Source: an uncultured Candidatus Saccharibacteria bacterium (lineage in GTDB: Bacteria; Patescibacteriota; Minisyncoccia; Phycocordibacterales; UBA6899). From it: 64,000 nt of DNA. Within the stretch, counting starts at the first letter, position 1; every line of letters begins with the position of its first letter. The notes beneath the pieces were generated by a model. The model did not search any database and was not told the origin of the DNA. It saw only the letters and a list, made by a program, of their open reading frames with translations. Positions 7,270-56,093 of this stretch are shown here, in pieces. The DNA lies in the NCBI GenBank assembly GCA_964469335.1, contig CAYXYK010000002.1, positions 189,549 to 253,548 on the forward strand, given 5' to 3'. Both the position numbers and the translations under genes were made by a program.

Positions 7270-7324
7270 GCGAGTAGTATATCAGATTAACGTGTATACG
7301 ACCGATCAAGCGAGACGGGTATAA

Positions 7325-8635: not shown

Positions 8636-8639
8636 AGAT

Positions 8640-9863
8640 TTAATTGGCTTGAGTTACTATTTGATCATAGAGTGCGTTGCATTTCCCCGCAGCACTTTCC
8701 CATGTGACATGCTCAACGTCGACAGAGCCGAGCTCACCGAGTGTTTCCTTGAGACCCTTGCTCTCAACGACGTTGATAATCTTATCTGCCATATCGTCGA
8801 TATCCCAAAAGTCGGACTTGAGCGCATGGGTAAGTACTTCCGCAACACCCGACTGCTTTGATACAAGGATCGGGGTCCCATTCGCAAGCGCTTCAAGCGC
8901 CGTGATGCCGAATGGTTCAGAAACAGACGGCATAATGTAGAGGTCAGCGGCTCGATAGAGTTTCATCAATTCCTCACCTCGGACGAAACCGGCAAAAATC
9001 ACTTTATCACCTATTCCCATGTCCGAAGCCAATCTGATCATCTGATGTTCCATATCCCCTGATCCTCCCATGACAAAAAGTACATTTTGATCGAACTCGA
9101 GCACGCGCTTCGCAACTTTGATGAAGTAGTCAGGCCCCTTCTGGATGGTGATGCGCCCGACGAAGAGGACAATTTTCTTCCCCTCCGCTCGAACGTTTTG
9201 GAGTGCAGGTGGCAGTTCCTTGGCATGTTCAGCATGATCGATACCATTGTGTACGACGGTGATCTTGTCGGGGTGTATATCATAATGCTCGACGATCACA
9301 TTCTTGGTGTGTTGCGAAACTGCGATGATACAGTCTGCCGCATGCATACCCCGACGTTCCTCGTCATAGATATACTGATTTGGTTTTCCGGCAGTTCGAT
9401 CGAACTCGGTTGCATGTACATGAACGATGAGCGGCTTGCCTGATACGCGTTTTGCCTCAAGTCCCGCGCGGAAAGACAGCCAGTCATGCGCATGAATGAC
9501 ATCATGGGGTTCATCTGCTGCGATGATCCGCGCTTGTAGGCCATAGCGCCTTACTTCATCGAAAAGATTCAACCCGTAGATCTTGTCTTCAGGAGCTGTT
9601 CGAAGGTACTCATCATAGAGCTCAGCGTTGATGTATGGATGCAGTAATGTCTTAATCTCACGAACTTTTATGTTGCGAATATTCGCGAACACAATCTTGA
9701 GGAAATCATGTTCGAGCCCGTTCAGTTTTTTCGGAAGAACAAATGTTACATTCACATCTCGACGCGAAAGTGCACGGGTCAACCCGTAGCAGGCTGTACC
9801 TAAACCGCCGCTGTTGTGCGGTGGGAATTCCCATCCAAACATGAGCACGCGTATGTTCTTCAT
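8640..9863 (-). CDS. GT4 glycosyltransferase (glycogen-synthase-like)
   Basis: 407 aa with a GT-B fold and the EPFG...E motif (SEPFGITALEALANGTPIL). It sits with GH57, GH15, pgi and a glucokinase. Confidence 0.75.
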   Translation of the reverse strand: MKNIRVLMFGWEFPPHNSGGLGTACYGLTRALSRRDVNVTFVLPKKLNGLEHDFLKIVFANIRNIKVREIKTLLHPYINAELYDEYLRTAPEDKIYGLNLFDEVRRYGLQARIIAADEPHDVIHAHDWLSFRAGLEAKRVSGKPLIVHVHATEFDRTAGKPNQYIYDEERRGMHAADCIIAVSQHTKNVIVEHYDIHPDKITVVHNGIDHAEHAKELPPALQNVRAEGKKIVLFVGRITIQKGPDYFIKVAKRVLEFDQNVLFVMGGSGDMEHQMIRLASDMGIGDKVIFAGFVRGEELMKLYRAADLYIMPSVSEPFGITALEALANGTPILVSKQSGVAEVLTHALKSDFWDIDDMADKIINVVESKGLKETLGELGSVDVEHVTWESAAGKCNALYDQIVTQAN

Positions 9864-9998: not shown

Positions 9999-12551
9999 TC
10001 AGTTCGCCACGAAAGAGAATTCTTTTTCTTCTACTGATGTGTCTGCCTTACAGATGACATATTCGGTATGCGAACCGACTGTTCCGAAATTTACTGTCTT
10101 GGTGTGAGTGAGATGGTCCGCACTAGAGCTAAGTGGATCATAAAGGACTGCATACGGATAGCCGCCTGCGTATGTCCGTTTGCACTGCGCGGGGATACTT
10201 GTCGTGACGGTATACGTTGCTGAGTAGTCATCGACCTTGGACTGCGTGCCCAAAGAAATAGACAAGGTGGTGGGAGATGAAGGGCTTGGTGAAGGTGTCG
10301 GTGCTGGGTTTGGTGCAGGTGACGGAGCTGGGGGGGTTGGAGCTGGAGCAGTCACCTGTGTGTAGACCCATGACGGTAGTCCAATCATAAAGTCGCTTGG
10401 GTATCCTCCGTCATTGAAGTTCGTTGCGAATATGATTCGTGATCCGTCACGACTGATTGTTGCTTGATGCTCGCCATAATAACCACCGTAATTCTCTGCA
10501 GCACGCGTATGGGCAACATTAAGAATCCGGCCACTTGGCTTCAGTTCAGCTAAAACGAGTTTCCTATACATGGACTGTAACGGCGTTGCAGGGCAAGTGG
10601 AACCGTAATTGCCGCAATCCGCATATGCGCCGATAAGTACCCACCCCTTTCTGTCATATGCTTTACCAGAAATGTGCACAGCATACGACGCACCAGATGC
10701 TGGATAGAGTGACATGATGTTGAACGATGAACCTGTTGCCATGTCTACCGCACGTATGTAACCACTATCGTAATCTGCAACTACATAATAGTCCTCATTG
10801 TTCGGTCCGAACGCGAGATCAGTATGCTCACTCATGTCATGAAGCATACGCCACGTCGAGAAGTCTCGCGTGTATGCACGGGTACCAAGTGCGCGGTTAT
10901 ATGCCCATGACGGAACTGCGTACGTGCCGCTCGGTGACATACTGATGTGATCCGGGAAAGCTCCTCCGAATGAGGATGCGGGTAAGGTCCCAAGGATAGT
11001 GTCGGTCACACGGTCCCAAGTGAACAGACCATAGATGACATTTGTTTGTGTTGATGAATTGTAAGAAGTAGCGATGAAAGCGAAGTAGCGTCCATCGGCA
11101 GATGAGACTCCTTCTGCTTTGGTCCACACACTCGTTACACCGCTCCATGGAAGCCGACCATTGAAGTTCCCTATGATTGTGTCGACATCTGTTTCAACAT
11201 TCTTTTCATACCAGATCATTCCCCCAGAATTACCTGTATACCAGAGTTTCGTGGGGTCAGTCGGGTGCCAGATAGGCTCCGAATCGCCTGCAAGACCCTT
11301 AAGGGAACCGTTGGTTCCGGTTCTTATTTGCCGCTGGAATAAATTTGCGTCATAGAGAACCCAGAAACCATTTCCAGTCTGAGCTATGAAGCGAGTATTG
11401 TCGGCATTGAATGCCTGCCTACGACTATAGTCATGGCGAATGAACGTTGCTCCAGGAAAGTCGGTTGAATCTGTGACCTTGTAAACCCGGGTCCCATAGA
11501 CCGGATCGATATAACTTGCTGTTGTCAGGCTCGTAGCTTTTGTGGCAGGCTTTGTGACCGAAGGAATCGGGTCGAGGGAAAGAGCCGTAAGTGAGAAGGT
11601 TGACGCATACAGCTGATCGAAGGGGTTAGCGCTTGATGGTGCAGAACTTGATACAGGTGTGGGGCTCGGAGTTGGTGAGGGGATCGGCGCAGGTGTGGGA
11701 GATGGCGCAGGACTCGGTGTTGTCGCCGCATAAGCTTCGATATAACCTTCGACCACCCACCCATCAGCGCCCGAATCAAAGTTGATTGACCACCAGATCA
11801 ATGAATTTGCGGACACTGATTGCGACATTACGGTTCCAACTGATCCAAATTGTTGAGTGCCAAGTATCGGGGCATTGGTTGAGGCAATACTTCTTACGTT
11901 CAGTGGTCCCGAAGTTACGGTTATTCGTTCGCCTGGGACGAACTTTGTTGAAGTAGTTGTGGCTGTCGTCGGTATCGGTGTAGGGGTTGGTGTAGGGGTT
12001 GGAGTAGGAGTGGGATTCGTTGAGGGAATTGGAGCCGGTGCTGGTGACTGGCTTACTGAACCACCTGAACCGCTTGGAGGAGATGTTGGAGTTGGAGAAA
12101 CACTGCTACCTCCACCCCCTCCACTTGAAACTGGAGACACTGGGGGCATGACCACAGCTGTACTTGTAGCTGTTTTTTGTAAGGCATCAGAGCATACAAG
12201 TGAGAGTTTTTCTCTTGTGAATTTTCCGACAAATCCACTCGCCTTCTTTAGGCCTGCTGGAGCAAGCACTTCCACTGCAAATTGATCCTGAAAACGTATC
12301 ACCGCTGCTTTTGTTGCCTTTCCGAAATAAGAAGTTTCTTGACCTATCGAACCCGCGCCTGATGAAGTAACTCTTGTTGTCGTGCTCATATTGAGTATGA
12401 TTTGCACACCCTTTACTTCTGCATCCGTCATTCCCTGCTTGAGATCTTTCGTAAGCACATAGGGGCACCCTGCAAATGCGGCGGTCGGTGAAGCGACCAT
12501 GAATATGAGAACGGCTAAGGCGGGAAGTTTTTTATTATTTATCATATGCAA
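9999..12551 (-). CDS. Secreted multidomain surface protein (PG-binding-like, SH3b-like, beta-propeller-like domains joined by Pro/Thr linkers)
   Basis: 850 aa. Signal peptide (MHMINNKKLPALAVLIFMVASPTAAFA), a peptidoglycan-binding-like N-domain, (PT)n tandem linkers (PTPTPTPTPTPTP; PSPTPAPIPSPTPSPTP), an SH3b-like block (WWSINFDSGADGWVVEGYIEAY) and a large WD/TolB-like block. Confidence 0.7.
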   Translation of the reverse strand: MHMINNKKLPALAVLIFMVASPTAAFAGCPYVLTKDLKQGMTDAEVKGVQIILNMSTTTRVTSSGAGSIGQETSYFGKATKAAVIRFQDQFAVEVLAPAGLKKASGFVGKFTREKLSLVCSDALQKTATSTAVVMPPVSPVSSGGGGGSSVSPTPTSPPSGSGGSVSQSPAPAPIPSTNPTPTPTPTPTPTPIPTTATTTSTKFVPGERITVTSGPLNVRSIASTNAPILGTQQFGSVGTVMSQSVSANSLIWWSINFDSGADGWVVEGYIEAYAATTPSPAPSPTPAPIPSPTPSPTPVSSSAPSSANPFDQLYASTFSLTALSLDPIPSVTKPATKATSLTTASYIDPVYGTRVYKVTDSTDFPGATFIRHDYSRRQAFNADNTRFIAQTGNGFWVLYDANLFQRQIRTGTNGSLKGLAGDSEPIWHPTDPTKLWYTGNSGGMIWYEKNVETDVDTIIGNFNGRLPWSGVTSVWTKAEGVSSADGRYFAFIATSYNSSTQTNVIYGLFTWDRVTDTILGTLPASSFGGAFPDHISMSPSGTYAVPSWAYNRALGTRAYTRDFSTWRMLHDMSEHTDLAFGPNNEDYYVVADYDSGYIRAVDMATGSSFNIMSLYPASGASYAVHISGKAYDRKGWVLIGAYADCGNYGSTCPATPLQSMYRKLVLAELKPSGRILNVAHTRAAENYGGYYGEHQATISRDGSRIIFATNFNDGGYPSDFMIGLPSWVYTQVTAPAPTPPAPSPAPNPAPTPSPSPSSPTTLSISLGTQSKVDDYSATYTVTTSIPAQCKRTYAGGYPYAVLYDPLSSSADHLTHTKTVNFGTVGSHTEYVICKADTSVEEKEFSFVAN

Positions 12552-12685
12552 GGCGAGATAAGAGAGAATTATTTATTTATCTTTGTTGTTATCCACGGTA
12601 TCACAAAAAATGAAAAGCGTCGCATGCTTTTCGGCGTATGCGACACTTATCATTGCACAAGTTTCTGAAGTATTTGTGCTCGGTA

Positions 12686-13228
12686 CTATAATGCTCCGAA
12701 GTAGACGATGACAACTTTGTCCGGAGAAAGAGGAGGGAGATCTGTCTGGCGGTTGAAGTCTTCACTGCCGTCATCATTGAGAATGCCGACATAGTACTTC
12801 TGACCTTGGACAGTAGGTCGCAGTAGATCTATCTTTGCGGATGTGTCACCAGCACGAACGCGCTTTGCACCCATGATATACCCAGGCTGTCCATCACGGT
12901 CATCGTAAACTGCTATCCAATTTGAATCTTTGATGTCGAGACTGTCGACTGTAACACTGTTTCCAGCAAGCTGATCTTGAACATTGAGCCCAAGACGAGT
13001 ACCTCTGGGGATCGAAGGGGCAAGAGGTAGAAGTGATGCGGGTTTTGCAATCGTCTCTTGAGTCTGTACCAAAGTGTTCGTGGCAGTCATTCCTCCGCTT
13101 TCAGTGGTGCTGATCGCTTCATCACCCCCCATATCTACGGTACGGGTTTTCCATGCCATGACACCTGCAGTTCCGATAAGAATACCGATAATAAGCATCA
13201 GTACGAGCTGTTGTGATTGTTTTGCCAT
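12686..13228 (-). CDS. Hypothetical membrane-anchored protein
   Basis: ORF with Met start MAKQSQQLVLMLIIGILIGTAGVMAW (N-terminal TM helix) followed by a ~150-aa extracytoplasmic domain. No recognisable family. Confidence 0.5.
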   Translation of the reverse strand: MAKQSQQLVLMLIIGILIGTAGVMAWKTRTVDMGGDEAISTTESGGMTATNTLVQTQETIAKPASLLPLAPSIPRGTRLGLNVQDQLAGNSVTVDSLDIKDSNWIAVYDDRDGQPGYIMGAKRVRAGDTSAKIDLLRPTVQGQKYYVGILNDDGSEDFNRQTDLPPLSPDKVVIVYFGAL

Positions 13229-23836: not shown

Positions 23837-23907
23837 TGGGAGATCGTCTAATGGTAGGACAGCGGCCTTTGAAGCCGTTAATCTTGGTCCGATTCCAAGT
23901 CTCCCAG
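23837..23907 (+). tRNA. tRNA-Gln (anticodon UUG)
   Basis: Manual fold: acceptor TGGGAGA/TCTCCCA (U1:A72, G73 discriminator as in bacterial tRNA-Gln), D-loop with GG, anticodon stem GCGGC/GCCGT with loop CTTTGAA (anticodon TTG), T-arm CTTGG/CCAAG. No encoded CCA. Confidence 0.75.
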
Positions 23908-23911
23908 CAAA

Positions 23912-24949
23912 CTACTTTTTCTCGCTTGTAGTCCGAATAAGAGCGAGCTCAAGAGGAAGAGACGGTATTACGCTCCATCCGATATCGTGCGATGCATGGA
24001 TGAATTCAGAAAGCACATGAGAGTTAATACGCTTCTCTTTTGAGGAAGCTAGCTCTTTGATCAGCGTCATATCATCTGGAGGAAATTCGTCTTTCAGTGT
24101 TACCTCCATGTTTGGTGCATAGCGAAGCAATAATATCGCACGCATCTTGGCAAGCAGCATCTTCAGGTAGACTTTCATGTCGATGCGCTCTTCACTCGCC
24201 TTTTTGAGCGCTTCGAGTCCCCCTGCAGGATCACCTGCTTCGATCGAGCGGACCACGCTATTCACCAGATCATGTGTCGGAGCACCAACCACTCTGGCTA
24301 CGGTATCGAGCTCGATCTTTCCTCCTTCTGCTGAGATGAGCACTTTTTCGAGCACAGAAAGAGTATCGCGATACGAACCATCACCGAACATCGCCACGAT
24401 ATCCGCAGAAGGTACGTCGAGTTTTATCTTTTCCTTTTTCGCTATCTCGATCGCATATTCTTTGAGCTCTATGAGCGCTGGTTGTTTGAACGTAAATGTC
24501 TGGCAACGTGAAATGATGGTCTCGGGAACCTTCTCACGGTCTGTGGTCGCAAGAACGAAAATGACATGTGCGGGAGGCTCCTCAAGAGTCTTGAGGAGTG
24601 CATTGAAAGCTTCTTTGGTGAGCATATGCACCTCATCGATAATATAGACTTTATATGGTGACTCAAACGGCATAGTTGAGACTCCTTCGCGTAGCTCACG
24701 GATGTCATCGATACCACGGTTCGAAGCAGCGTCGAGTTCATAAAGGTCAGAAGGCTTACACCCTATCTCTGCGGCAAAAATGCGTGCAACCGTAGTTTTT
24801 CCAGTTCCTCTTCCCCCTGAGAAAAGATACGCATGGGAAATGTTCTTATCCTTGATCGCACGAAGGAGTGTCGAGACAATCTCGTCCTGCCCACGAACGT
24901 CAGCAAACTCTTTTGGGCGGTATTTACGATACAAAGCTAATTCAGACAT
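23912..24949 (-). CDS. dnaX: DNA polymerase III subunit gamma/tau
   Basis: MSELALYRKYRPKEFADVRGQDEIV..., Walker A GGRGTGKTT, Walker B YIIDEVHML and sensor SRCQ. Start set at the internal ATG 24949; the track ORF extends upstream. Confidence 0.85.
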   Translation of the reverse strand: MSELALYRKYRPKEFADVRGQDEIVSTLLRAIKDKNISHAYLFSGGRGTGKTTVARIFAAEIGCKPSDLYELDAASNRGIDDIRELREGVSTMPFESPYKVYIIDEVHMLTKEAFNALLKTLEEPPAHVIFVLATTDREKVPETIISRCQTFTFKQPALIELKEYAIEIAKKEKIKLDVPSADIVAMFGDGSYRDTLSVLEKVLISAEGGKIELDTVARVVGAPTHDLVNSVVRSIEAGDPAGGLEALKKASEERIDMKVYLKMLLAKMRAILLLRYAPNMEVTLKDEFPPDDMTLIKELASSKEKRINSHVLSEFIHASHDIGWSVIPSLPLELALIRTTSEKK

Positions 24950-24979
24950 AAAAAGGATTATACAGTATTTTACGCATGA

Positions 24980-25007
24980 AAAAAGGCACTCTTTCGAGCG
25001 CCCGAAG
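24980..25007 (-). terminator. Rho-independent terminator (GGGCGCTC-GAAA-GAGTGCC + U6) ending the ffs-like RNA just upstream of the dnaX promoter
   Basis: Minus strand reads GGGCGCUCGAAAGAGUGCCUUUUUU, followed by TATAAT and then the dnaX start. Confidence 0.7.
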
Positions 25008-25168
25008 GGGTGCGACAATCCCTGCTGTGGTACCAAGGTTACCGCTTACTTCCGAAGTGGGTCATTAGCTGGCCAGGCATGTAGGCCCAGAGTGTGGGTT
25101 GCAAGACTCGACCAAGGTGGATGCTTTCCATGGAAAAGTCCCGGTTACAGCAAAGTGTGTCGCACCAC
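24980..25168 (-). ncRNA. ffs: Putative SRP RNA (ffs)-like small structured RNA
   Basis: It lies directly upstream of dnaX on the same strand, the classic ffs-dnaX linkage. It has its own sigma70-like promoter (TTGACC-17-TAATAT) and an intrinsic terminator. The ~150-nt body has 5' GGUGCGACA...GCUGU pairing with 3' ACAGC...UGUCGCACC (closing helix) and an internal hairpin GGGACUUUUCCAUGGAAAGCAUCC. The segment GCCUGGCCAGCUAA...CUUCGGAAGUAAGCGG resembles SRP helix-5/8 sequence. A canonical GNRA domain-IV tetraloop is not evident, so the identity is tentative. Confidence 0.45.
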
Positions 25169-25477: not shown

Positions 25478-25753
25478 CTAGATACCTGTCTTCTGAAGAT
25501 CGGAAGCCACTTCGCAGACGTGCTTGCCATTGTGCGGTTCACAAAGTTCATGCAATGCATCGTTCTCCTTTTCATTCTCACCGTGGCAGCAGTTGCTCTT
25601 TGATTTCCCGCAAGGGCATTTCCCTTCTTTGTCGAACACGATCCCCTCAGGAGGGAGCGAGCAGGTTTCCTTACCTTCGGATACTTGTGCGCACGCACAG
25701 TTCCCTCCGCAGCCGACGAACTCCTTTTGATCATCATTTTTTGACATGAACAT
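25478..25753 (-). CDS. Small Cys-rich putative metal-binding protein (91 aa)
   Basis: MFMSKNDDQKEFVGCGGNCACAQ...CSLPPEGIVFDKEGKCPCGKSKSNCCHGENEKENDALHELCEPHNGKHVC: 14 Cys in CxC, CxxC and CC arrangements. Followed by a hairpin terminator. The overlapping Arg/Ser-rich ORF 25468..25737 is rejected. Confidence 0.55.
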   Translation of the reverse strand: MFMSKNDDQKEFVGCGGNCACAQVSEGKETCSLPPEGIVFDKEGKCPCGKSKSNCCHGENEKENDALHELCEPHNGKHVCEVASDLQKTGI

Positions 25754-25823: not shown

Positions 25824-26276
25824 TTATTTCTTCGTCTTTTTCGCCGCTTTTTTTGCTGTTGCCTTCGCAACAACTTTCTTACCTGTTGCGACAGCTTTCT
25901 TGGTTGCTTTCTTCACTACTTTCATCTCTTTCGCTCCAACACGATTGAGTTCTGCTGAGACATGTTTCCAGTTTGTCTTCAGTTCCCTTGCGGCACTAGC
26001 AAGATCTGCCTGATCTATCGACTTTACCTTGTCGTATGCACGCATTGATTCATCGACGATGGTCTTCCATGCCTTTTCATCGAGCTTTTGAAGTTTCTTT
26101 GCCTTTTTCATTGCATCAGCCTGGAGTGATTGCGCCCACTTTGCCGCTTTCTTGCGATGCTTGGTCGCATCTTTACTTCCGAAAAAGAAATAACCGGCAC
26201 CTGCCGCCGCAGCCGCTGCGAGTCCGAGTCCTACACCTAGTGCAACCTTTTTCTTACTTACTGGTTTTTTTGCCAT
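25824..26276 (-). CDS. Hypothetical membrane-anchored protein with Lys/Ala-rich (histone-H1-like) repeats
   Basis: MAKKPVSKKKVALGVGLGLAAAAAAGAGYFFF (TM helix), then a helical domain and the tail KKATKKAVATGKKVVAKATAKKAAKKTKK. Confidence 0.55.
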   Translation of the reverse strand: MAKKPVSKKKVALGVGLGLAAAAAAGAGYFFFGSKDATKHRKKAAKWAQSLQADAMKKAKKLQKLDEKAWKTIVDESMRAYDKVKSIDQADLASAARELKTNWKHVSAELNRVGAKEMKVVKKATKKAVATGKKVVAKATAKKAAKKTKK

Positions 26277-27720: not shown

Positions 27721-30588
27721 TTATGTCTGTGGCGGCGGGATAGATGTCGCCGGCGTTACAGGAGGTGGGGGTATCGAGGTTGGGGATTCCGGTAACGAGA
27801 CAGCTCCCTGTGGGGGTATTGGCATGAACTGGTCGGGTTGCACCGATGCCAAAGATGCGGGATTCTGGCCATTTCCCGGCAAATTAGAGACTGAAGTTAC
27901 TTCTGGGATGTGAATAGAGTTGAAAGCAAGGGCATTGGGCATGCGCTTGTCTACCGGGGTAGTCGCGAGTTCGTGATCACTAACACCCTTCAGCTCTGGG
28001 AAGTCATCAAGGGTAAATTCGAGACTCGCACCGGGAAGCAGTTTCCCTGAGATGATCTTTTCAGCAACTTTCTGCTCCACCAATTCTTGTACCGCTCGGG
28101 CCATCGGGCGAGCACCCATGTCCGGATCAACACCGTGTGCGAGCAGTGCTTGGATGATGACGTCATTAATCACCAAACTCACACTTTTCTCACGTAGACG
28201 TTTCTGTAATTTTTTGAGCATGAACTCCGCGATGATCTTGTACTCGGGGACTGTCAGTGGATGGAAGAGAATGATACCGTCAAAACGATTGAAGAGTTCA
28301 GGTTTGATCTTCCCTTGCTCGATAATTTGGTCGAGTATCTCTTTCTTTACCGTATCGAGGTTTTTCCCTTCTTTGATCGCTGCACGAATAAGCGGAGCAC
28401 CGGCATTCGAAGTCGCTATAAAAATAGTATTCCGCGCATTTACTTTCCTTCCCTGCGCATCATGGAAGATACCTTCATCGAAGATCTGCATGAAGACGTC
28501 GAGTACTTTGGTGTTGGTCTTCTCGAACTCATCAAGAAGCACTACGCCATACGGCTGTTCTTTCAGGAGGACAGGCAAAGCGCCAGGGGTTCCATCCATC
28601 GAACCGATCATACGTGACAATCCATCCTCTCCCTGGTATTCGGTCATGTCGAGTCTGCCCATCGCACCTTCACTTCCGAAATACACATTCGCTAGCGCTT
28701 TCGCTGTTTCGGTCTTTCCTACACCAGTCGGACCGAGGAAAAGGAAGTTCCCTATCGGACGCTCCATACTACGCACCCCGGCGCGAGCGCGGCGCATTGC
28801 ATTGGCGATGATCTCAACTGCCTGTACTTGCCCTACCACCTGCTTCTTCATCAGTTCCTCGAGATTCATCAGGCGGATACGTTCTTCGTCCGAGATGTTG
28901 CCAACGGGGATATTGGTCTTTTTTCGGATGAATTCGAGCACGTCCATCTTTTTGATCAGGTGTCCTCCCTTCGCCAGCATCGTCGGTACAAGTTCGACCA
29001 TCAGGTCTATCGCCTTGTCTGGCATCACTCCGTCAGAAAAATAATGCTCTGCCCCTTTGATGATCTCTACAACGGCGGGGTATGTGAAATACACTGGGTT
29101 CCGGCGTTCGGTCGCTTCGGCAACTTCTTCCAATATGCGAAGTAGGGACTCTTCAGGAGGTTCTGTGAGTACGACCTTCTCAAAGCGCTGCATGATCGCA
29201 TTGTTCGGCTCTATGTACTGATGGAAACGGGCATTATCCGCGGTCGCAATCACCTGAAGTGAACTACCAGTCAAATAGGCATCGAGGAGACTCATGACAT
29301 CCGAGTCCAGAGCGAGACCACTTTGTATGAAGCCAGGGAGATCCTCGATGACAAGGATGATATTGCCGGCTTTCACTGCATCATTAAGTAGCTTAATGAG
29401 TCCTGTTTCAAGGGATTGTTTATCCTTCATCCCTGCGATAAAACTCTTCGCATCGAACGCCATTACGCGACGATGTTTCAACTTCGGGTTTGTATAGCCG
29501 TTGGTGATATCGCGCGCGAAGTCCAAGATAACATCCATCTTTCCACTGCCTTCCTCCCCGACAAGAATAGCATTCGCCTCTTTTTCTCTCGAGAGCACTA
29601 TTTCGATCTGCTTGATCTGCTCATTGCCATAAACGAAAGCGAAATTCGAACCACCGCCAATAGCTTTACTCGACAGGTCAGTACCGTATTTCCCAAGGAC
29701 ATATGCACCTCCGTAAGCGAATTCAGATCCGAAAGATTTCGATTGTCCGAGAGCGGTCTTTCCCCAGAAACGCTGTTTCTGTTTCTTTTTCTTGATCGAA
29801 CGTTCGACCCACTCGGCAGGACCTATCAGTTCGCGTTTTCGTACCCCGAGTTCGAAAATGAACTGATAGAAGTCAGGGTCCTTCTCTACAATAATGTCGG
29901 CTAAATCGCGCAATGTGAACGTCTGACGCAGGTCACTCTCGAGCTCATTCCAGTTCACAACAGTTTTTCTGTTCTTCAGGTAGTCATCGATGGTCACGTC
30001 CGCGATCCCAGCACGTCTTGTGATATTGCGACCGTATTTTGAAAGGCAGAAACTCTTCAAGAGATCTCCGTGTTTCGTCTCGTAATAGATATCGCACACC
30101 TCATAGTTCGGGGTGGAATACGGCGTTTGGGCCCCTGTCACGCCACGCTCAAGCAGGCCTTCGACATAGTAGAAATATGAACGCGAGTAGAACGATAGCA
30201 TTTTCATCAAGAGCCATACCGCAAGCGCGATGAGAAAGATACCGTTGCCTTTAGCGCTTTCAGGATCAAGTGGAATCTCGGTTTCTTTGATCCCTGGAAT
30301 GAGAGCTGGGAGGGATGTGGTCTTGGGTACAGTGACCGTTGTTTCACTTTGAATGACGATGGTCTTGCTCGGAGCATCCATAACATCCATTTTGGGCACG
30401 ACGATCCCCGTCGCAAGACGCTTTTGCACGAACGGCGCCAGCATCACGCCCAAGTAGATGAGCACAATAGTACCAGCAAGAATAGAAATGATATTACGTA
30501 TCTTCCGAGGAAAAGTATGCTCGAGAACGATACCTCTCGAGAAGCGGTAGTTCGGGTCTCTCCAGAATGTGTCATCGAATCCGAACAT
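27721..30588 (-). CDS. Membrane-anchored double-AAA+ ATPase of the ClpA/ClpB/ClpC family
   Basis: 955 aa. ~280-aa N-terminal region with two TM helices replaces the usual Clp N-domain. D1 has an atypical Walker A (LVGEEGSGKMDV) and Walker B (ILVIEDLPG). D2 is canonical: GPTGVGKTETAKALA, VVLLDEFEKT, ATSNAG, GARPMARAVQ. No IGF/LGF ClpP loop is seen, and the tail is Pro-rich (SIPPPPVTPATSIPPPQT). Confidence 0.8.
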   Translation of the reverse strand: MFGFDDTFWRDPNYRFSRGIVLEHTFPRKIRNIISILAGTIVLIYLGVMLAPFVQKRLATGIVVPKMDVMDAPSKTIVIQSETTVTVPKTTSLPALIPGIKETEIPLDPESAKGNGIFLIALAVWLLMKMLSFYSRSYFYYVEGLLERGVTGAQTPYSTPNYEVCDIYYETKHGDLLKSFCLSKYGRNITRRAGIADVTIDDYLKNRKTVVNWNELESDLRQTFTLRDLADIIVEKDPDFYQFIFELGVRKRELIGPAEWVERSIKKKKQKQRFWGKTALGQSKSFGSEFAYGGAYVLGKYGTDLSSKAIGGGSNFAFVYGNEQIKQIEIVLSREKEANAILVGEEGSGKMDVILDFARDITNGYTNPKLKHRRVMAFDAKSFIAGMKDKQSLETGLIKLLNDAVKAGNIILVIEDLPGFIQSGLALDSDVMSLLDAYLTGSSLQVIATADNARFHQYIEPNNAIMQRFEKVVLTEPPEESLLRILEEVAEATERRNPVYFTYPAVVEIIKGAEHYFSDGVMPDKAIDLMVELVPTMLAKGGHLIKKMDVLEFIRKKTNIPVGNISDEERIRLMNLEELMKKQVVGQVQAVEIIANAMRRARAGVRSMERPIGNFLFLGPTGVGKTETAKALANVYFGSEGAMGRLDMTEYQGEDGLSRMIGSMDGTPGALPVLLKEQPYGVVLLDEFEKTNTKVLDVFMQIFDEGIFHDAQGRKVNARNTIFIATSNAGAPLIRAAIKEGKNLDTVKKEILDQIIEQGKIKPELFNRFDGIILFHPLTVPEYKIIAEFMLKKLQKRLREKSVSLVINDVIIQALLAHGVDPDMGARPMARAVQELVEQKVAEKIISGKLLPGASLEFTLDDFPELKGVSDHELATTPVDKRMPNALAFNSIHIPEVTSVSNLPGNGQNPASLASVQPDQFMPIPPQGAVSLPESPTSIPPPPVTPATSIPPPQT

Positions 30589-30589
30589 A

Positions 30590-30982
30590 CTATGAGAGGA
30601 GTGAACTTATTCCATTAAGCAAGAAGCTGACAATCAGAACCGGGAGTGTGAGCCATAACGCAAGAAACATTAGCCCTCCGATGATGACAGTTGTGAAACC
30701 GAGGAATGCGGCGGTGATGATGGCGGAGCGAAGAAAGAATCCGACAAGACGCATGATGATATTCACCACAAGCCCCGAGAAGAACTGTTCGGGGTGAAGC
30801 AAGATGCTCCCACGCTCTTCCTGAAGTCTCTTGAAGGGTGCAAAAAGGCTTTTTAACACATCTGGAACGGAAAATAGATGATTCACGAACCACAAGTAAT
30901 TCCACCAGATATGGAGGAAATCGGTGATCGCCATACTGTAATGCCACACCAGGTAGTTCTTGGCGATGGATACGATGTTCAT
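30590..30982 (-). CDS. Small polytopic membrane protein, upstream partner of the Clp-like ATPase
   Basis: 130 aa with 3-4 TM helices. Its stop is 1 nt from the ATPase start codon, indicating an operon. Confidence 0.5.
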   Translation of the reverse strand: MNIVSIAKNYLVWHYSMAITDFLHIWWNYLWFVNHLFSVPDVLKSLFAPFKRLQEERGSILLHPEQFFSGLVVNIIMRLVGFFLRSAIITAAFLGFTTVIIGGLMFLALWLTLPVLIVSFLLNGISSLLS

Positions 30983-31093
30983 GTAAAAATTATATCACGG
31001 AGCTGGCGAGCGCACAGCAATTCGGTTTTACAAAGTGCATACTTAGCTCCATACGTATCAATTCCCATATGTGTTAGTTCAGAAAAACAGTGA

Positions 31094-31960
31094 CTACTTG
31101 TAGAAGATCTTGTTGCCGAAGCGCAGATCGATCTCCCTCACCCCCTTCCCTTTATCGGGAGTCTTTTCGAGGTTCTCAAGCACGACACCAAGATTTGCGA
31201 TCGTCCTATCCGGTTCTTTGCTCGTGGCAAGCAGAAGTACCCATGGCATGCCAACTTCGGCGCGAATATCCCCGCCACCAAGGAGTGTTACTGAATGAGT
31301 GGTGAGTCCGACCCGAGAAAGATCATCGATATACATTCGTATACGCGAGTAGGCATCTTCTGTGAGCACAGTGGTCCCTATCGGAGACTGATGAGTGACC
31401 GCTTCTTCAGTGGAAGATGCAACGATCGCAACGAATGGATATCCGATGTACTCGGGGGCCTCAGCGTACACGTATCCATCCACATCAGCAAAATAGCAAT
31501 CCTTCGGCTGGTATTCCGAAGGAGAACTTGAAGAAGTCGTGGGGAGGAGGTCGCTTCGCATGCAGTAAAGGAAGTTCGGAGTGTATTCAGTAATGATCAC
31601 TCGCATGTGGTGGTGCGAATCGAATGCCGTTTTCACATTAGCGATACGTGGAGACAGTGATTTCACTGCTCGTTCCATCTCCATCACGGGGAAGAGTATC
31701 TGATTATTTCTTTTCACCCAAAAAAGAATTGTATCGTCGAGATGAGCGACTGCGACATTCTTGATACCTTCCTCTGAGATTGCATGCGCTCCCTCTACGG
31801 TGACTGATGTGATATGAAGTGCAGGACGGAGCGATATCCATGCACACAAAAGAAAGACCGCATACAACGTGATGATCGTATAGCCAATATACGCAAACGT
31901 TTTGTCGATCTTGCGCATCCGTGACCGCTTCGATTTAAGAGTCTTTCTGCGAAGCGCCAT
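31094..31960 (-). CDS. ftsQ: Cell division protein FtsQ/DivIB-like (POTRA domain)
   Basis: Basic N-terminus, a single TM helix, then LHITSVTVEGAHAISEEGI (POTRA start) and a beta domain; 288 aa. Confidence 0.65.
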   Translation of the reverse strand: MALRRKTLKSKRSRMRKIDKTFAYIGYTIITLYAVFLLCAWISLRPALHITSVTVEGAHAISEEGIKNVAVAHLDDTILFWVKRNNQILFPVMEMERAVKSLSPRIANVKTAFDSHHHMRVIITEYTPNFLYCMRSDLLPTTSSSSPSEYQPKDCYFADVDGYVYAEAPEYIGYPFVAIVASSTEEAVTHQSPIGTTVLTEDAYSRIRMYIDDLSRVGLTTHSVTLLGGGDIRAEVGMPWVLLLATSKEPDRTIANLGVVLENLEKTPDKGKGVREIDLRFGNKIFYK

Positions 31961-47687: not shown

Positions 47688-48809
47688 TCACTCCTTACTA
47701 CGCAGTCGATAGGCGTTGGAAAAGTCGAGGTCTTGCATGGCAATGATCGAAAGCCGTGCTCCTTGTTCCCTGGTAAGGACCGGGGGGATATCCTTGTACT
47801 GATCCAATACCTTTCCAGCTGTGTCGCGTGTCGCGTTGGCGCTATTGCCGAGCACCACGGTGGCACCTGAGCCAGTACCGTTTCCGCTTTTGTTGCTGAT
47901 CCCGACACTGAGGCTGTCGAGGAGCGCAAAGGCGAGCCCCGGGAGGAGTCGCTTCATGAAGCGTGCATCAACATGCCCTTCGATGCCTGGCTCACCGAGC
48001 TCGCTGGTGAACTGGGAACCAAGATCGATGAGGACGTGATCCGGTGTTTCAGCCCGTGCTGCAAGTGCGAACAACCGCTCTTGCCCGAGTGGCAGTGCGC
48101 CGACTTGATTACCGACGATCTTGGTGCCCCTTGGGAGGAGCACCATCTTCTTGTCAGCGCCATAGACATCAGTCGCAAGATCACAGGTGATCTGCCCAGG
48201 CACTTCGCTGTTGATCCGTACCTTTGAGAAACAGTCACCAAGTGGCGTACCTCGCGTGATGGTGTAGGTCGGATTGCGCATCACAGCCGCAAGCGCACCT
48301 GAAGGCTGTGTCGGCTTCATGCTGCCACCGAGACCACCGTCGCCGGAAGTGACGCCTCCGCCGCCGTTCGTCAGAACGGATGGCGATGACATGCGATCGG
48401 CATTCGGATTGCGTGGCTTCGGTGGGTCGACCTGGGTCGGGGCATATGACTTGTCGGCATTCGGGACCACGACGCCAATCGGCTGCGGGGTTGGGGTCGC
48501 CTCCTTCACCACTGGGATCGGCGGAGGAGGTGGCTTAAGGTCTTCCGGAAGATTCGCATCGAGACGTCGTTGAGTGGTCTGGATCTCTGGTTCCTTCTGT
48601 TGATGTTGGGGGCGATACCAGAACATGTAGTAGCAGAACGCCGTCACCAACAGGACGAAGATCGGGATCGCCAGCTTGAGGCGATCGTTGTGTTGTGCAC
48701 GAATGAGTGCGTCGGGACCGGAACGGTCGCCCGGGATCTCGACGTCATGCGATTCGACGTCGACGGGTTCCTCACGATTCCGCGAGGTCCTTCTTCGTTG
48801 AGCAGACAT
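47688..48809 (-). CDS. virB10: VirB10/TrbI-family T4SS protein
   Basis: N-terminal TM helix, a Pro-rich linker (PPPPPIPV...) and a C-terminal TrbI beta-barrel domain (GTKIVGNQVGALPLGQERLF...). Confidence 0.8.
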   Translation of the reverse strand: MSAQRRRTSRNREEPVDVESHDVEIPGDRSGPDALIRAQHNDRLKLAIPIFVLLVTAFCYYMFWYRPQHQQKEPEIQTTQRRLDANLPEDLKPPPPPIPVVKEATPTPQPIGVVVPNADKSYAPTQVDPPKPRNPNADRMSSPSVLTNGGGGVTSGDGGLGGSMKPTQPSGALAAVMRNPTYTITRGTPLGDCFSKVRINSEVPGQITCDLATDVYGADKKMVLLPRGTKIVGNQVGALPLGQERLFALAARAETPDHVLIDLGSQFTSELGEPGIEGHVDARFMKRLLPGLAFALLDSLSVGISNKSGNGTGSGATVVLGNSANATRDTAGKVLDQYKDIPPVLTREQGARLSIIAMQDLDFSNAYRLRSKE

Positions 48810-48912
48810 GTCACTCTCCTTTCGAGATGGTTGATGTGGCAGTGGTCAATCGAGACCTAGCCGTGGCCGAACGGTCGGCAAAGCGAGAAAACAGTGTAGA
48901 CATAACACGATT

Positions 48913-48996
48913 CTCCTTATTTCTGAACATAAAAAAGAACTCGTCTAGTTGGTACCTAGCCGAGTTCATCCTATCGAAATGTCCGGAATGTGCAAG
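48913..48996 (-). repeat. Copy R1 of a ~85-bp repeated module: -35/-10-like hexamers, terminator-like hairpin and AAGGAG
   Basis: Minus strand reads TTGCAC-16 nt-TAGGAT, GAACTCGG(loop)CGAGTTC, T6, ATGTTC..AAATAAGGAG. It fills the trbL-virB10 gap and is closely similar to R2 and R3. Confidence 0.7.
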
Positions 48997-49000
48997 CAAT

Positions 49001-50209: not shown

Positions 50210-50245
50210 CGTAGTTCTCCTTTCAGATGATCAGAGTGCTCGAGG

Positions 50246-50647
50246 TCAACGACCTTCTGCCTTTCTGTAGATAACTTTCGGAACGCTTGCGCTCTCTGCC
50301 GGAAAAAACGTCCGCGGTGCCGAGGCTGCTTTCGCATCTTCAAGCGCCGCATCTATGGTTGCCGTACTTTCACGACTCAGCTCTTCGATCTTCCTTAGAG
50401 TTGCATCCTTGTGGATGACGAACTTAGGCGCATTCCATTTTGGGAGCTCTGTGGGGAAACTGAAATATCCAACCATGATGAATGCAAGTCCGAGCAGCAC
50501 CATCACGGTTGCGAACAGTCGTCCTTGGGTATAGCGCGTGTTGCTGTGTCGGAGTGGAGCACCCTTGTCGCCATCGATCTCGATGATTCGCTCTCCCCCA
50601 TCCACACCAGTCGGTGTGGATGGGGATTCTTCACTGGTCGAGGTCAT
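50246..50647 (-). CDS. Small T4SS-associated membrane protein (133 aa, unknown family)
   Basis: Single TM helix, a GAGGAAG RBS, overlap with the trbG stop, and position between trbG and trbL. Confidence 0.5.
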   Translation of the reverse strand: MTSTSEESPSTPTGVDGGERIIEIDGDKGAPLRHSNTRYTQGRLFATVMVLLGLAFIMVGYFSFPTELPKWNAPKFVIHKDATLRKIEELSRESTATIDAALEDAKAASAPRTFFPAESASVPKVIYRKAEGR

Positions 50648-52259: not shown

Positions 52260-52298
52260 GACGATCTCCTTGTCTAAAAAGTATGGTGCCGAGGCACA

Positions 52299-52469: not shown

Positions 52470-52478
52470 GATTGCACA

Positions 52479-53500: not shown

Positions 53501-53506
53501 GACGAT

Positions 53507-53590: not shown

Positions 53591-53626
53591 GTTGCTTGAT
53601 CGGAGGTTTTCGTGTTACCGAATCCC

Positions 53627-56038: not shown

Positions 56039-56093
56039 GGCAATCTCCTTGTTGAGTGGAAATGAAAAGTGGGGAGCGATTGCTCCCCACCGT

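What the first reader, a model, noticed from the sequence alone, without database searches (positions are those of the whole stretch)
27721..30982. Membrane-anchored ClpB/ClpC-like double-AAA+ ATPase with a degenerate D1, co-operonic with a small polytopic membrane protein
The Clp N-domain is replaced by ~280 aa containing two TM helices. D1 has non-canonical Walker A/B (GEEGSGKM; IEDLPG, with swapped acidic residues), so it is probably ATP-binding only or inactive, while D2 is fully canonical. No IGF/LGF ClpP-docking loop is visible, and the protein ends in a Pro-rich tail. A 130-aa multi-TM protein is encoded 1 nt upstream. A membrane-tethered unfoldase or disaggregase of this design is not a standard bacterial Clp/Hsp100 type. 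It could act in membrane-protein quality control or extraction, or feed a secretion apparatus.
Basis: partly seen in the sequence, partly recalled or inferred. Interest (0 to 1): 0.55.

Follow-up and report, generated by a model that had tools for sequence, protein, structure and literature searches.

The report
Membrane-anchored Clp-like ATPase with small partner
This is a real, undescribed two-gene module that is widespread in Patescibacteria: a Clp/Hsp100-type double-ring ATPase built into the membrane, with a dead first ring and a remodelled substrate-gripping loop, always paired with (and in two cases fused to) a 130-residue membrane protein. Its function is unknown.

Summary
ORF 27721-30588(-) encodes a 955-aa Clp/Hsp100-type double AAA+ protein with two conserved N-terminal TM helices. 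A 130-aa membrane protein gene (30590-30982) ends 1 nt upstream.

This is not a mis-started ClpC. The N-terminus and TM hairpin are conserved across a discrete family of at least 476 clusters at 50% identity, and every source-named or titled member is Patescibacteria, mostly Paceibacteria-type.

- **D1** is a pseudo-ATPase: Walker B 'DE' occurs in 0/86 members, the Walker A Lys is lost in 30/86, and there is no pore-loop aromatic.
- **D2** keeps all catalytic motifs, but its pore loop is cut from 11 to 6-7 residues and reads [M/F/Y]-[D/E]-G instead of Y-V-G.
- **Missing parts:** there is no M-domain and no ClpP-docking loop.

- The N-domain is probably retained in diverged form after the TM hairpin, not replaced.
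- D2 is not fully canonical, and the Pro-rich tail is specific to close relatives.

The small protein (at least 1,459 clusters, no Pfam family) lies directly upstream in every locus examined. In two distant lineages it is fused in frame and replaces the ATPase's own TM hairpin. ftsQ usually sits just upstream.

Best reading: a two-subunit, protease-free membrane AAA+ machine that pulls on membrane-proximal substrates. The function is inferred, not shown.

The parts
30590..30982 (-). Gene for the 130-aa small membrane partner. It has a cytoplasmic aromatic-rich helix (aa 3-36), a conserved loop with the PFKRLQE motif (aa 46-63), a juxtamembrane helix with invariant R78/G81/R85, and an uncharged 45-aa C-terminal TM hairpin (aa 86-130).
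   Evidence: ORF. Homologues lie directly upstream of the ATPase in all loci. The family has at least 1,459 clusters and no Pfam or NCBIfam match. AF2 pLDDT is 89.3. Fusions show that the C-terminus is cytoplasmic.
27721..30588 (-). Gene for the 955-aa membrane-anchored Clp/Hsp100-type double AAA+ ATPase.
30502..30588 (-). Cytoplasmic N-tail (aa 1-29), basic and conserved from Met1.
   Evidence: A3 has invariant M1, Y14, L22 and R31. K+R density is 0.17 against 0.08 in the external loop.
30424..30501 (-). TM helix 1 (aa ~30-55).
   Evidence: KD maximum 2.53. Present in all full-length family members.
30250..30423 (-). Extracytoplasmic loop (aa 56-113), poorly conserved and variable in length (about 5-58 aa).
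   Evidence: Conservation 0.26. TM spacing varies between members.
30181..30249 (-). TM helix 2 (aa ~114-136).
   Evidence: KD maximum 1.99. Conserved.
29713..30180 (-). Cytoplasmic helical N-domain (aa 137-292): eight short helices plus a long linker helix. Probably a highly diverged Clp N-domain.
   Evidence: AF2 pLDDT 78.8. Foldseek gives no significant hit, but 14 of the top 40 are Clp N-domains, with TM 0.23-0.49. hhalign score is 24.0 against shuffles of 11.6 +/- 2.1, maximum 17.6, 0 of 150 reaching it. No Pfam Clp_N match.
28954..29712 (-). D1 AAA+ module (aa 293-545), catalytically degenerate. Walker A is GEEGSGKM (nt 29536-29559), Walker B is ILVIED (nt 29341-29358), and the pore-loop position reads KDKQSLE with no aromatic (nt 29407-29427).
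28009..28953 (-). D2 AAA+ module plus D2-small domain (aa 546-860). Walker A is GPTGVGKT (nt 28711-28734), Walker B VVLLDE (nt 28528-28545), sensor 1 TSN, Arg finger NRFD, sensor 2 GARPM. Pore loop 1 is shortened to GSMDGTPG (nt 28582-28605).
27724..28008 (-). Pro-rich (21% Pro) low-complexity C-terminal tail (aa 861-955). Found only in close relatives.
30989..30997 (-). Extended -10-like element TGaTATAAT, ending 6 nt before the small gene's ATG. It is a candidate promoter for a leaderless or short-leader small-plus-ATPase transcript (inference only).
   Evidence: Read directly from the sequence. The consensus scan did not list it because there is no -35 match.
31094..31960 (-). Upstream neighbour: a 288-aa FtsQ/DivIB homologue (N-terminal basic tail, one TM, POTRA). 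It is frequently but not always linked to the module.
   Evidence: The profile hits FtsQ structures at E = 3.5e-6 over nearly the full length. POTRA_1 matches 8/13 members. It lies upstream of the small gene in 32 related loci.

Best explanation
SHOWN:
- The locus encodes a two-subunit, membrane-embedded AAA+ machine derived from class-I Clp/Hsp100 ATPases. All source-named or titled members are Patescibacteria, mainly Paceibacteria-type.
- The large subunit has this order: cytoplasmic basic tail, TM hairpin, diverged N-domain-like helical domain, D1, D2, D2-small.
- D1 has lost the catalytic Walker B glutamate in every member, has often lost the Walker A lysine, and has no pore-loop aromatic. 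It is nevertheless well conserved overall, so it is a structural or regulatory pseudo-ATPase ring.
- D2 keeps every nucleotide-hydrolysis element, including the trans-acting arginine finger. D2 is therefore the only motor, and the protein presumably works as a ring oligomer.
- D2 pore loop 1 is shortened and reads [M/F/Y]-[D/E]-G.
- There is no M-domain (no DnaK coupling of the ClpB type), no ClpP-docking loop and no peptidase domain, so the machine is protease-free.
- The 130-aa protein is an obligate partner. It is always encoded immediately upstream (1-33 nt spacing or a 4-nt overlap). In two distant lineages it is fused in frame in place of the ATPase's own TM hairpin.

INFERRED:
- The small protein forms the essential membrane part of the complex, as anchor, adaptor or gate, and its C-terminus is cytoplasmic.
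- Because the anchor is N-terminal, the N-domain/D1 entry face lies against the inner face of the membrane, and Hsp100 motors move substrate from D1 to D2. ATP hydrolysis in D2 would then pull a membrane-embedded or membrane-proximal polypeptide out of or away from the membrane and release it into the cytoplasm. That is extraction, disassembly or remodelling without degradation.
- The acidic residue beside the hydrophobic pore residue suggests a preference for basic segments.
- The frequent ftsQ neighbour and the recurring peptidoglycan genes nearby suggest that the clients are envelope or division membrane proteins.
For: Architecture and family:
- Domain and motif assignment.
- The family is discrete, with a sharp score drop to ordinary ClpB, which matches D2 only.
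- 476 clusters at 50% identity carry the N-domain, always at residue 63-137 in full-length members.
- A TM segment precedes the N-domain in 101/101 full-length representatives.

D1 and D2 states:
- D1 Walker B 'DE' 0/86, Walker A Lys 56/86, pore position T/S/D/G/N/E only.
- D2 Walker A Lys 86/86 and Walker B DE 86/86.
- Sensor 1, Arg finger and sensor 2 are conserved, and there is no ClpP-loop insertion.
- D2 pore-loop pattern, with M in 57, F in 18 and Y in 4 of 107 sequences, followed by D or E in 90 of 107. Phe dominates among the 50% representatives.
- ClpB residues 403-530 (the M-domain) have no counterpart.

Partner:
- Adjacency in 9/9 loci, in all 37 reference-genome loci that include upstream DNA, and in 3/3 reverse look-ups starting from the small protein.
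- Adjacency is kept where the surrounding context differs.
- Fusions in L047 and P0241, which are 30% identical to each other.

Topology.

Context:
- FtsQ.
- MltG, MurJ and SLT; Peptidase_S11; MurT and Ddl; Amidase_3.
Against: - No experiment or literature exists for this family.
- The window's own clade has Met, not an aromatic, at the pore-loop position, followed by Asp. D1 has no gripping residue at all. Processive threading is therefore not assured.
- Oligomeric state and a physical interaction between the two proteins were not modelled, because complex prediction was not possible with these tools.
- The ftsQ linkage may reflect the generally conserved gene order of Parcubacteria (PMC4508563) rather than shared function. 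It is lost in several loci.
- The polarity argument assumes canonical Hsp100 directionality.
Confidence: 0.5

Rival explanations
1. Non-threading, Torsin-like switch or mechanotransducer. The D2 ATP cycle does not translocate a polypeptide. Instead it drives conformational changes through the TM hairpin and the small partner, regulating an envelope process such as septal peptidoglycan synthesis or hydrolysis. This would be functionally analogous to FtsEX or to Torsin with LAP1/LULL1.
For: - D1 is dead and has no pore-loop aromatic.
- In the window's clade the D2 pore loop is shortened and reads Met-Asp-Gly.
- The module depends on an obligate membrane cofactor.
- Division and cell-wall genes lie nearby.
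- Torsins are the Clp-related precedent: no aromatic pore loops, membrane association and TM cofactors (PMC5425593).
Against: - Most deep-branching members keep Phe or Tyr in the D2 pore loop.
- The arginine finger is retained in cis, unlike Torsin.
- The external loop is short, variable and poorly conserved (conservation 0.26), so there is no obvious extracytoplasmic effector surface.
- The ATPase's own TM hairpin is dispensable in the fused forms.
Confidence: 0.25
2. Protease-coupled membrane quality-control unfoldase, like FtsH or ClpAP, that hands substrates to a separately encoded peptidase.
For: - The FtsH-like topology: N-terminal two-TM hairpin followed by cytoplasmic AAA+.
- The ClpA-like D1-D2 layout without an M-domain.
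Against: - There is no M41 or other peptidase domain.
- There is no [ILV]G[FL] ClpP-docking tripeptide or loop insertion in any member.
- No peptidase gene is conserved in the neighbourhood.
Confidence: 0.07
3. A motor that feeds a secretion or translocation channel, like PTEX HSP101-EXP2, with the small protein as the channel.
For: - The ATPase is paired with a membrane protein.
- One distant locus lies next to type IV pilus / T2SS genes.
- The top Foldseek hit of the N-domain is the PfHSP101 N-domain, but it is not significant.
Against: - The N-terminal anchor places the entry face (N-domain/D1), not the exit face (D2), at the membrane. Canonical Hsp100 polarity would move substrate away from the membrane (inference).
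- The small protein has only a two-helix TM hairpin and no fold relatives among channels.
- No secretion genes are conserved nearby.
Confidence: 0.05
4. An anti-phage defence or mobile-element module, comparable to the ClpB-like DolB of Dodola.
For: PADLOC DolB and PDC-M37B models hit residues 535-729.
Against: - Those hits cover only the generic AAA_2 core. The small protein and FtsQ have no PADLOC hits.
- The module sits in a conserved housekeeping block (dprA | serS-ftsQ-small-ATPase-dus) across lineages down to about 30% identity. It is not in variable islands.
Confidence: 0.03
5. An ordinary ClpC/ClpA with a mis-called start codon, in which the 'TM helices' are translated upstream non-coding DNA.
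For: Some sources name relatives 'ClpC' or 'ClpA'.
Against: - The N-terminal 136 aa are conserved from Met1, and both TM helices are present in every full-length member.
- Scores are far below the ClpA, ClpB and ClpC equivalog cut-offs.
- A real ClpC recovered in the same scan (L048) has Clp_N, GEPGVGKT and KYRGEFE, and has no partner gene.
Confidence: 0.01

Closest known systems
Class-I Clp/Hsp100 ATPases (ClpA, ClpB, ClpC)
   Same: - Tandem D1-D2 AAA+ modules with a C-terminal D2-small domain.
- D2 is 37-42% identical to ClpB D2 and has identical Walker A/B, sensor 1, Arg finger and sensor 2.
- The D1-D2 junction is ClpA-like, with no M-domain.
- A helical domain in the N-domain position weakly resembles Clp_N.
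   Different: - It is an integral membrane protein with a two-TM hairpin.
- D1 is a pseudo-ATPase.
- There is no D1 pore-loop Tyr, and D2 pore loop 1 is shortened and reads [M/F/Y]-[D/E]-G.
- There is no M-domain (unlike ClpB and ClpC) and no ClpP loop (unlike ClpA and ClpC).
- It has an obligate small membrane partner.
- It scores far below all equivalog cut-offs.
FtsH (membrane-anchored AAA+ protease)
   Same: - N-terminal two-TM hairpin with an external loop, followed by a cytoplasmic AAA+ ring facing the membrane.
- A likely role acting on membrane proteins.
   Different: - FtsH has one AAA+ module of the classical clade plus an M41 peptidase domain. Here there are two HCLR-clade modules and no peptidase.
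- FtsH's pore loop carries Phe in an Ar-Φ-Gly motif (own knowledge).
Torsin ATPases with LAP1/LULL1 cofactors
   Same: A Clp/Hsp100-related AAA+ that is membrane-associated through an N-terminal hydrophobic segment, lacks the canonical aromatic pore loop and depends on transmembrane cofactors (PMC5425593).
   Different: - Torsins are eukaryotic, lie in the ER lumen, have a single ring and lack their own arginine finger, which the cofactor supplies.
- Here the Arg finger is retained.
- The cofactor here is a 130-aa helical hairpin protein with no AAA-like fold.
- Most family members keep Phe or Tyr in the D2 loop.
Msp1/ATAD1 and Cdc48/p97 (membrane-protein dislocases)
   Same: - The proposed activity is ATP-driven, protease-free extraction of membrane proteins.
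- Msp1 is N-terminally TM-anchored.
- p97 and NSF-type proteins combine one active ring and one largely inactive ring (own knowledge).
   Different: They belong to a different AAA+ clade (classical), have canonical aromatic pore loops and have no small polytopic partner. None of this was tested here beyond the motif comparison.
VirB3-VirB4 (type IV secretion)
   Same: This is an analogy of gene organisation only. A small membrane protein is encoded just upstream of a large ATPase and is fused to it in some lineages (fusion: own knowledge). An example lies in this same window at 53627-56486.
   Different: The ATPase fold (VirB4/TraG P-loop) and the system are unrelated. The small-protein profile (A1) did not match that ORF (no Pfam overlap).

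Membership tests
Clp/Hsp100 class I (generic) | Two tandem AAA+ modules (D1, D2) of the HCLR clade with a C-terminal D2-small domain | tested here: met
   ClpB D1 aligns to q292-538 and D2 to q545-859. AAA_2 and ClpB_D2-small exceed their Pfam cut-offs.
Clp/Hsp100 class I (generic) | N-terminal Clp_N double-repeat domain (PF02861) | tested here: inconclusive
   No Pfam hit in the window protein, and PF02861 is not listed for the family clusters. An eight-helix domain occupies the right position. hhalign scores 24.0 against shuffles with a maximum of 17.6. 14 of the top 40 Foldseek hits are Clp N-domains, but all have E >= 0.9 and TM < 0.5.
Clp/Hsp100 class I (generic) | Catalytically competent D1 (Walker A GxxGxGKT, Walker B hhhhDE) | tested here: not met
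   GEEGSGKM and ILVIED in the window. Across the family, 'DE' occurs in 0/86, Lys in 56/86, and Thr is replaced by Met in 74/86.
Clp/Hsp100 class I (generic) | Conserved pore-loop-1 tyrosines in D1 (KYRG) and D2 (GYVG) | tested here: not met
   The D1 position is T/S/D/G/N/E in 86/86. The D2 loop is 6-7 aa against 11, with SMDG in the window and [M/F/Y]-[D/E] across the family.
Clp/Hsp100 class I (generic) | Soluble cytoplasmic protein | tested here: not met
   Two conserved TM helices precede the N-domain.
ClpB (TIGR03346 / NF008118) | Coiled-coil M-domain inserted in D1-small, and a score above the equivalog cut-off | tested here: not met
   ClpB residues 403-530 have no counterpart; q538-545 bridges D1 and D2. 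The score is 404.8 bits against a cut-off of 1232.1.
ClpA / ClpC (TIGR02639 and relatives) | ClpP-docking loop with an [ILV]G[FL] tripeptide in D2, and a score above the equivalog cut-off | tested here: not met
   There is no such tripeptide anywhere and no loop insertion in any member. The ClpA score is 345.5 against 993.15.
FtsH | Single classical-clade AAA module followed by an M41 zinc peptidase domain | tested here: not met
   No Peptidase_M41 or FtsH-type hit. The architecture is two Clp-type modules.
Torsin | Single Clp-D2-like AAA+ lacking both aromatic pore loops and its own arginine finger, activated by an AAA-like TM cofactor | tested here: not met
   The Arg finger NRFD is conserved. 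The protein has two modules. The cofactor is a helical hairpin with no AAA-like fold. Torsin features are taken from PMC5425593.
Dodola DolB / PDC-M37 (defence) | Full-length match to the system's ATPase plus the cognate partner gene | tested here: not met
   Only residues 535-729 (the AAA_2 core) match. The partner genes have no PADLOC hit. The module lies in housekeeping synteny.
New family defined here (membrane Hsp100 plus 130-aa partner) | TM hairpin, then diverged N-domain, then degenerate D1, then active D2 with a short [M/F/Y]-[D/E]-G loop, with the small WHY...PFKRLQE...MRxVGxxxR membrane protein encoded immediately upstream or fused | tested here: met
   The window protein and its partner show every feature.

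The most novel reading that the evidence does not exclude
This would be the first membrane-integral Hsp100: a two-component, protease-free dislocase or remodeller seen here only in Patescibacteria. Its acidic, shortened D2 pore loop would grip the basic cytoplasmic tails of bitopic envelope or division proteins, such as the FtsQ encoded next door, whose N-tail has 11 K/R in 22 residues. The complex would extract, recycle or disassemble those proteins, and the 130-aa partner would act as the intramembrane gate or adaptor. That would be a new way of controlling the divisome or cell-wall machinery in ultra-small bacteria.
Probability: 0.2. Interest if true: 0.8.

Novelty: new variant of a known kind. 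Interest (0 to 1): 0.62.

Why it matters
Hsp100/Clp ATPases are among the best-studied protein machines, and the bacterial members described so far are soluble. In the paper library searched, FtsH is described as the only known membrane-anchored AAA+ protease family (PMC8943139 abstract).

This finding defines a large family, at least 476 clusters at 50% identity, in which a Clp-type double ring was moved into the membrane. It lost catalysis in one ring, had its substrate-gripping loop rebuilt, and became tied to a dedicated small membrane subunit.

The family is conserved with housekeeping synteny across a major group of the uncultured, genome-reduced Patescibacteria. It is therefore probably a core function of their envelope biology, which is largely unknown.

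For AAA+ specialists it offers a natural experiment on what a pore loop with Met or Phe followed by an acidic residue, and a dead D1 ring, can do. For genome annotation it corrects routine 'ClpC/ClpA' mislabels. It also flags a small partner gene that gene callers sometimes miss.

Tried and rejected
I rebuilt the alignment from P-protein substrings.
- The first genome scan, using the 9-sequence alignment, failed because it had no conserved stretch. It worked with 5 closer sequences.
- A single-sequence hhalign of the N-domain profile against the ClpC N-domain of L048 gave nothing useful (probability 2%).
- The small protein has no Pfam hit even at E <= 10, no NCBIfam or PADLOC hit and no fold relatives.
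- I suspected that the 803-aa plus 130-aa pair at 53627-56486 was a paralogous module. It is VirB4 plus VirB3.
- I first read the D2 pore loop as 'deleted'. A residue-level tabulation showed that it is shortened and remodelled, with Met, Phe or Tyr retained, so I withdrew the stronger claim.
- Four literature searches found no description of this family.
- The consensus promoter and terminator scan was no better than shuffled sequence.
- I could not test whether the same genomes also encode canonical ClpB, ClpC, ClpP or FtsH.

Full report

The window has a 955-aa ORF at 27721-30588(-) and a 130-aa ORF at 30590-30982(-). The junction reads ...TCA TAG t ATG TTC..., so one base separates the stop codon from the start codon.

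Pfam places AAA_2 at residues 610-770, ClpB_D2-small at 781-856 and a weak AAA_lid_9 at 480-533. Nothing matches residues 1-290.

phmmer against PDB sequences aligns ClpB D1 (155-402) to q292-538 and ClpB D2 (531-847) to q545-859. The ~128-residue ClpB M-domain therefore has no counterpart. The NCBIfam ClpA model aligns in one piece over q259-857. Every Clp equivalog model scores far below its cut-off: ClpB 404.8 vs 1232, ClpA 345.5 vs 993, ClpV 319.9 vs 885.

Kyte-Doolittle analysis finds two strong hydrophobic helices at about 30-55 and 114-136. In the small protein it finds a hydrophobic C-terminal half.

No [ILVM]G[FLM] tripeptide exists anywhere in the protein. The last 95 residues are 21% proline.

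**2. A discrete, large family, not a mis-started ClpC**

A search of 5.8 billion proteins returned about 84 clusters that cover at least 65% of the query (most at least 77%), at 29-95% identity. None has a Clp_N Pfam domain. Where a source names them, they come from Paceibacterota, Lloydbacteria or the 'Patescibacteria group'.

Scores then fall abruptly, from 534 to about 345 and then about 300 bits. At that level the hits are ordinary ClpB proteins that match D2 only, with 31-35% coverage.

A scan of species-representative genomes with a family-specific N-terminus plus D1 alignment found 39 further loci in Lloydbacteria, Taylorbacteria, Paceibacterota, Parcubacteria and similar MAGs. It also found one Lachnospiraceae outlier, L048. 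That outlier is a normal ClpC with a Clp_N-type N-terminus, GEPGVGKT, KYRGEFE, no TM segment and no partner gene.

An exhaustive HMMER search of 1.84 billion representatives with the N-domain profile found 476 clusters at 50% identity with E <= 1e-3, and 337 with E <= 1e-10. In every full-length hit the domain begins at residue 63-137. Among 101 full-length representatives none lacks a hydrophobic segment before it, and 79 have exactly two by a simple count.

The N-terminus is conserved from Met1, with invariant M1, Y14, L22 and R31 in alignment A3.

**3. Anatomy of the large subunit**

*Topology.* The N-tail is basic (K+R density 0.17), while the inter-helix loop is not (0.08). That loop is poorly conserved (0.26) and varies from about 5 to 58 residues. 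Since D1 and D2 need cytoplasmic ATP, the topology is N-in, hairpin, C-in.

*N-domain (137-292).* An AlphaFold2 model built on a 35-sequence alignment has pLDDT 78.8. It shows eight short helices and then a long helix.
- Foldseek against the PDB gives no significant hit (best E = 0.9). However, 14 of the top 40 hits are Clp N-domains from PfHSP101, ClpA, ClpC, ClpC1 and a Corynebacterium Clp, with TM-scores of 0.23-0.49.
- hhalign against a ClpB N-domain profile gives an in-register alignment over both repeats. The score is 24.0, against 11.6 +/- 2.1 (maximum 17.6) for 150 column shuffles and 10.5 for the reversed profile.

*D1.* Across 86 members:
- The Walker B pair is never DE (ED 46, DD 16, EN 5, DN 5, GD 3 and others).
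- The Walker A Lys is present in only 56, and the following Thr/Ser is Met in 74.
- The pore-loop Tyr position is T, S, D, G, N or E in all.
- An Arg at the finger position is kept in most.

Even so, D1 is well conserved overall (0.71). It is a pseudo-ATPase ring under purifying selection, as in other two-ring AAA+ proteins with one inactive ring (own knowledge: NSF D2, PEX1/6 D1).

*D2.* The Walker A Lys and Walker B DE are present in 86/86. Sensor 1 (TSN), the Arg finger (NRFD) and sensor 2 (GARP) are conserved, and there is no ClpP-loop insertion.

Pore loop 1 is not canonical. ClpB has APPGYVGYEEG (11 residues), while the family has 6-7 residues of the form [SGAT]-[M/F/Y]-[D/E]-G-x-x. The window has SMDGTP. 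Over 107 sequences the second residue is M in 57, F in 18 and Y in 4, and the third residue is D or E in 90. Among the 50% representatives Phe dominates.

My first impression that the loop was 'deleted' was therefore too strong. A hydrophobic or aromatic gripping residue persists, but it is followed by an acidic residue instead of the usual hydrophobic one.

*C-tail.* The tail is variable (3-201 residues, conservation 0.13) and Pro-rich only in close relatives.

**4. The small protein is an obligate partner**

In eight diverse loci retrieved through the ATPase, a 112-152-aa homologue lies immediately upstream. Public gene calls had missed it in two of them.

An HMM scan of all loci found it directly upstream in every locus where upstream DNA is present. 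The two without it begin inside the ATPase gene.

Starting instead from three distant small-protein homologues, the ATPase is directly downstream in 3/3. One of these sits in an unrelated context, smpB ... infC-rplT.

The small family has at least 1,459 clusters at 90% identity, all about 127-135 aa and all 'hypothetical'. It has no Pfam, NCBIfam or PADLOC match.

Its AF2 model (pLDDT 89.3) shows an aromatic-rich helix at 3-36, a short helix, a conserved loop (PFKRLQE) and a long hydrophobic helical region at 64-129. No structural relatives were found.

Charges cluster in residues 37-85, and residues 86-130 are uncharged. This fits a cytoplasmic N-half followed by a tight TM hairpin.

The strongest evidence is a pair of fusions. 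In L047 (a Paceibacterota MAG) the small protein (aa 15-136) is fused in frame to the N-domain, D1 and D2. The N/D1 profile match starts only at model position 132, so the small protein replaces the ATPase's own TM hairpin.

A second fusion, P0241 from marine sediment, is only 30% identical to L047 and spans the same junction. The fusion is therefore real and recurrent. It shows that the small protein's C-terminus is cytoplasmic, and it implies that the two proteins form one machine in which the small protein supplies the essential membrane part.

**5. Context**

The gene upstream of the pair (31094-31960) is an FtsQ/DivIB homologue. Its profile hits E. coli FtsQ structures at E = 3.5e-6 over nearly the full length, and POTRA_1 matches 8 of 13 members. 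It precedes the small gene in 32 related loci.

The block dprA(-) | serS-ftsQ-small-ATPase-(variable)-dus recurs in about 27 of 40 loci, down to about 30% identity.

Other loci place the pair next to peptidoglycan genes:
- MltG, SLT and MurJ
- Peptidase_S11
- MurT and Ddl
- Amidase_3/PG_binding_1

This suggests an envelope or division link. The evidence is weak, however, because gene order is generally conserved in Parcubacteria (PMC4508563) and the ftsQ linkage is lost in several loci while the pair stays intact.

An extended -10-like TGaTATAAT ends 6 nt before the small gene's ATG. That hints at a separate promoter and a leaderless transcript, which is inference only. The generic promoter scan was uninformative.

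**6. Mechanism**

Shown: the architecture, the motif states, the partnership and the fusions.

Inferred:
- D2 is the only motor and acts in a ring, because its arginine finger acts in trans.
- D1 is a scaffold.
- The machine is protease-free and independent of DnaK-type coupling, because it has no ClpP loop, no peptidase domain and no M-domain.
- The anchor is N-terminal and TM2 runs almost directly into the N-domain, so the substrate-entry face abuts the membrane. With the canonical D1-to-D2 polarity, force is directed away from the membrane.
- This fits extraction or remodelling of membrane-embedded or membrane-proximal proteins. It does not fit feeding a secretion pore.
- The acidic pore-loop neighbour suggests basic clients. 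The adjacent FtsQ has a strongly basic cytoplasmic tail (MALRRKTLKSKRSRMRKIDKTF). This is a testable speculation, not evidence.

The main rival is a Torsin-like, non-threading switch. Torsins are Clp-related, lack aromatic pore loops, associate with membranes and need TM cofactors (PMC5425593). The Met-Asp loop of the window's clade and the dead D1 favour this rival. The retained Arg finger and the Phe or Tyr in most lineages count against it.

**7. Comparison and novelty**

The protein works most like a Clp/Hsp100 motor and is clearly derived from one. It nevertheless fails several defining features of ClpA, ClpB and ClpC: an active D1, the pore-loop tyrosines, the M-domain or ClpP loop, solubility, and the equivalog scores.

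It shares topology with FtsH but not the AAA+ clade or the peptidase domain. It is not a defence module, because the PADLOC hits cover only the AAA_2 core.

Four literature searches found no description of it. I classify it as a new variant of a known kind: a membrane-integral Hsp100 with a dedicated small subunit.

**8. Verdict**

Interest is 0.62. The architecture and the partnership are solid and would surprise an AAA+ specialist. The function is still inferred.

Noticed in passing
window 53627-56486 (-), within the higher-GC stretch ~48000-58000: An 803-aa VirB4/CagE-type ATPase (CagE_TrbE_VirB, TraG P-loop) has a 130-aa VirB3-like gene just upstream. GC here is 0.54-0.57, against 0.45-0.50 for most of the window. 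This may be an integrated conjugative or type IV secretion element in a Patescibacteria genome.
   Followed up: partly
window 31094-31960 (-): This FtsQ/DivIB homologue falls below Pfam's POTRA_1 threshold (E = 0.019, 15.7 bits vs 23) and is unannotated in related loci. A family profile recognises it against FtsQ structures at E = 3.5e-6.
   Followed up: yes
L005:5660-5998 and L007:5606-6004: The small partner gene is present in these loci, but the collection's gene calls missed it. The family is therefore under-annotated.
   Followed up: yes
window 30983-30997 (-): An extended -10-like TGaTATAAT ends 6 nt before the small gene's ATG, and no obvious Shine-Dalgarno sequence precedes either gene. 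This suggests a leaderless transcript and translational coupling across the 1-nt junction.
   Followed up: no
window 25824-26276 (-): A 150-aa, very Lys/Ala-rich protein with an N-terminal hydrophobic segment (MAKKPVSKKKVALGVGLGLAAAAAAGAGYFFF...KKAAKKTKK). It has no Pfam hit.
   Followed up: no
window 25478-25753 (-): A 91-aa ORF rich in Cys and His (CGGNCACAQ...CPCGKSKSNCCHGE). It may be a small metal-binding protein, and several ORFs overlap it in other frames.
   Followed up: no
window 3983-9863 (-): A cluster of glucan or glycogen-type carbohydrate genes: PGI-like, GH15 glucoamylase-like, GH57, and a GT4/starch-synthase-like glycosyltransferase.
   Followed up: no
window 9999-12551 (-): An 850-aa ORF with only a sub-threshold SH3_3 hit. 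It is otherwise unannotatable.
   Followed up: no
L002:8466-9497, L041/L042 downstream genes, L049:6856-8390, L004:4365-5408 and 11184-12857: Peptidoglycan-related genes recur right next to the module in lineages where the usual dus neighbour is displaced: Peptidase_S11, PGA_cap plus Amidase_3, YceG/MltG and MurJ.
   Followed up: partly
window 23912-25036 (-) and 23837-23908 (+): A DnaX-like (DNA polymerase III gamma/tau-type) 374-aa ORF abuts a tRNA-Gln gene. I recognised it from the sequence only (GGRGTGKTT, IIDEVHML) and did not test it.
   Followed up: no
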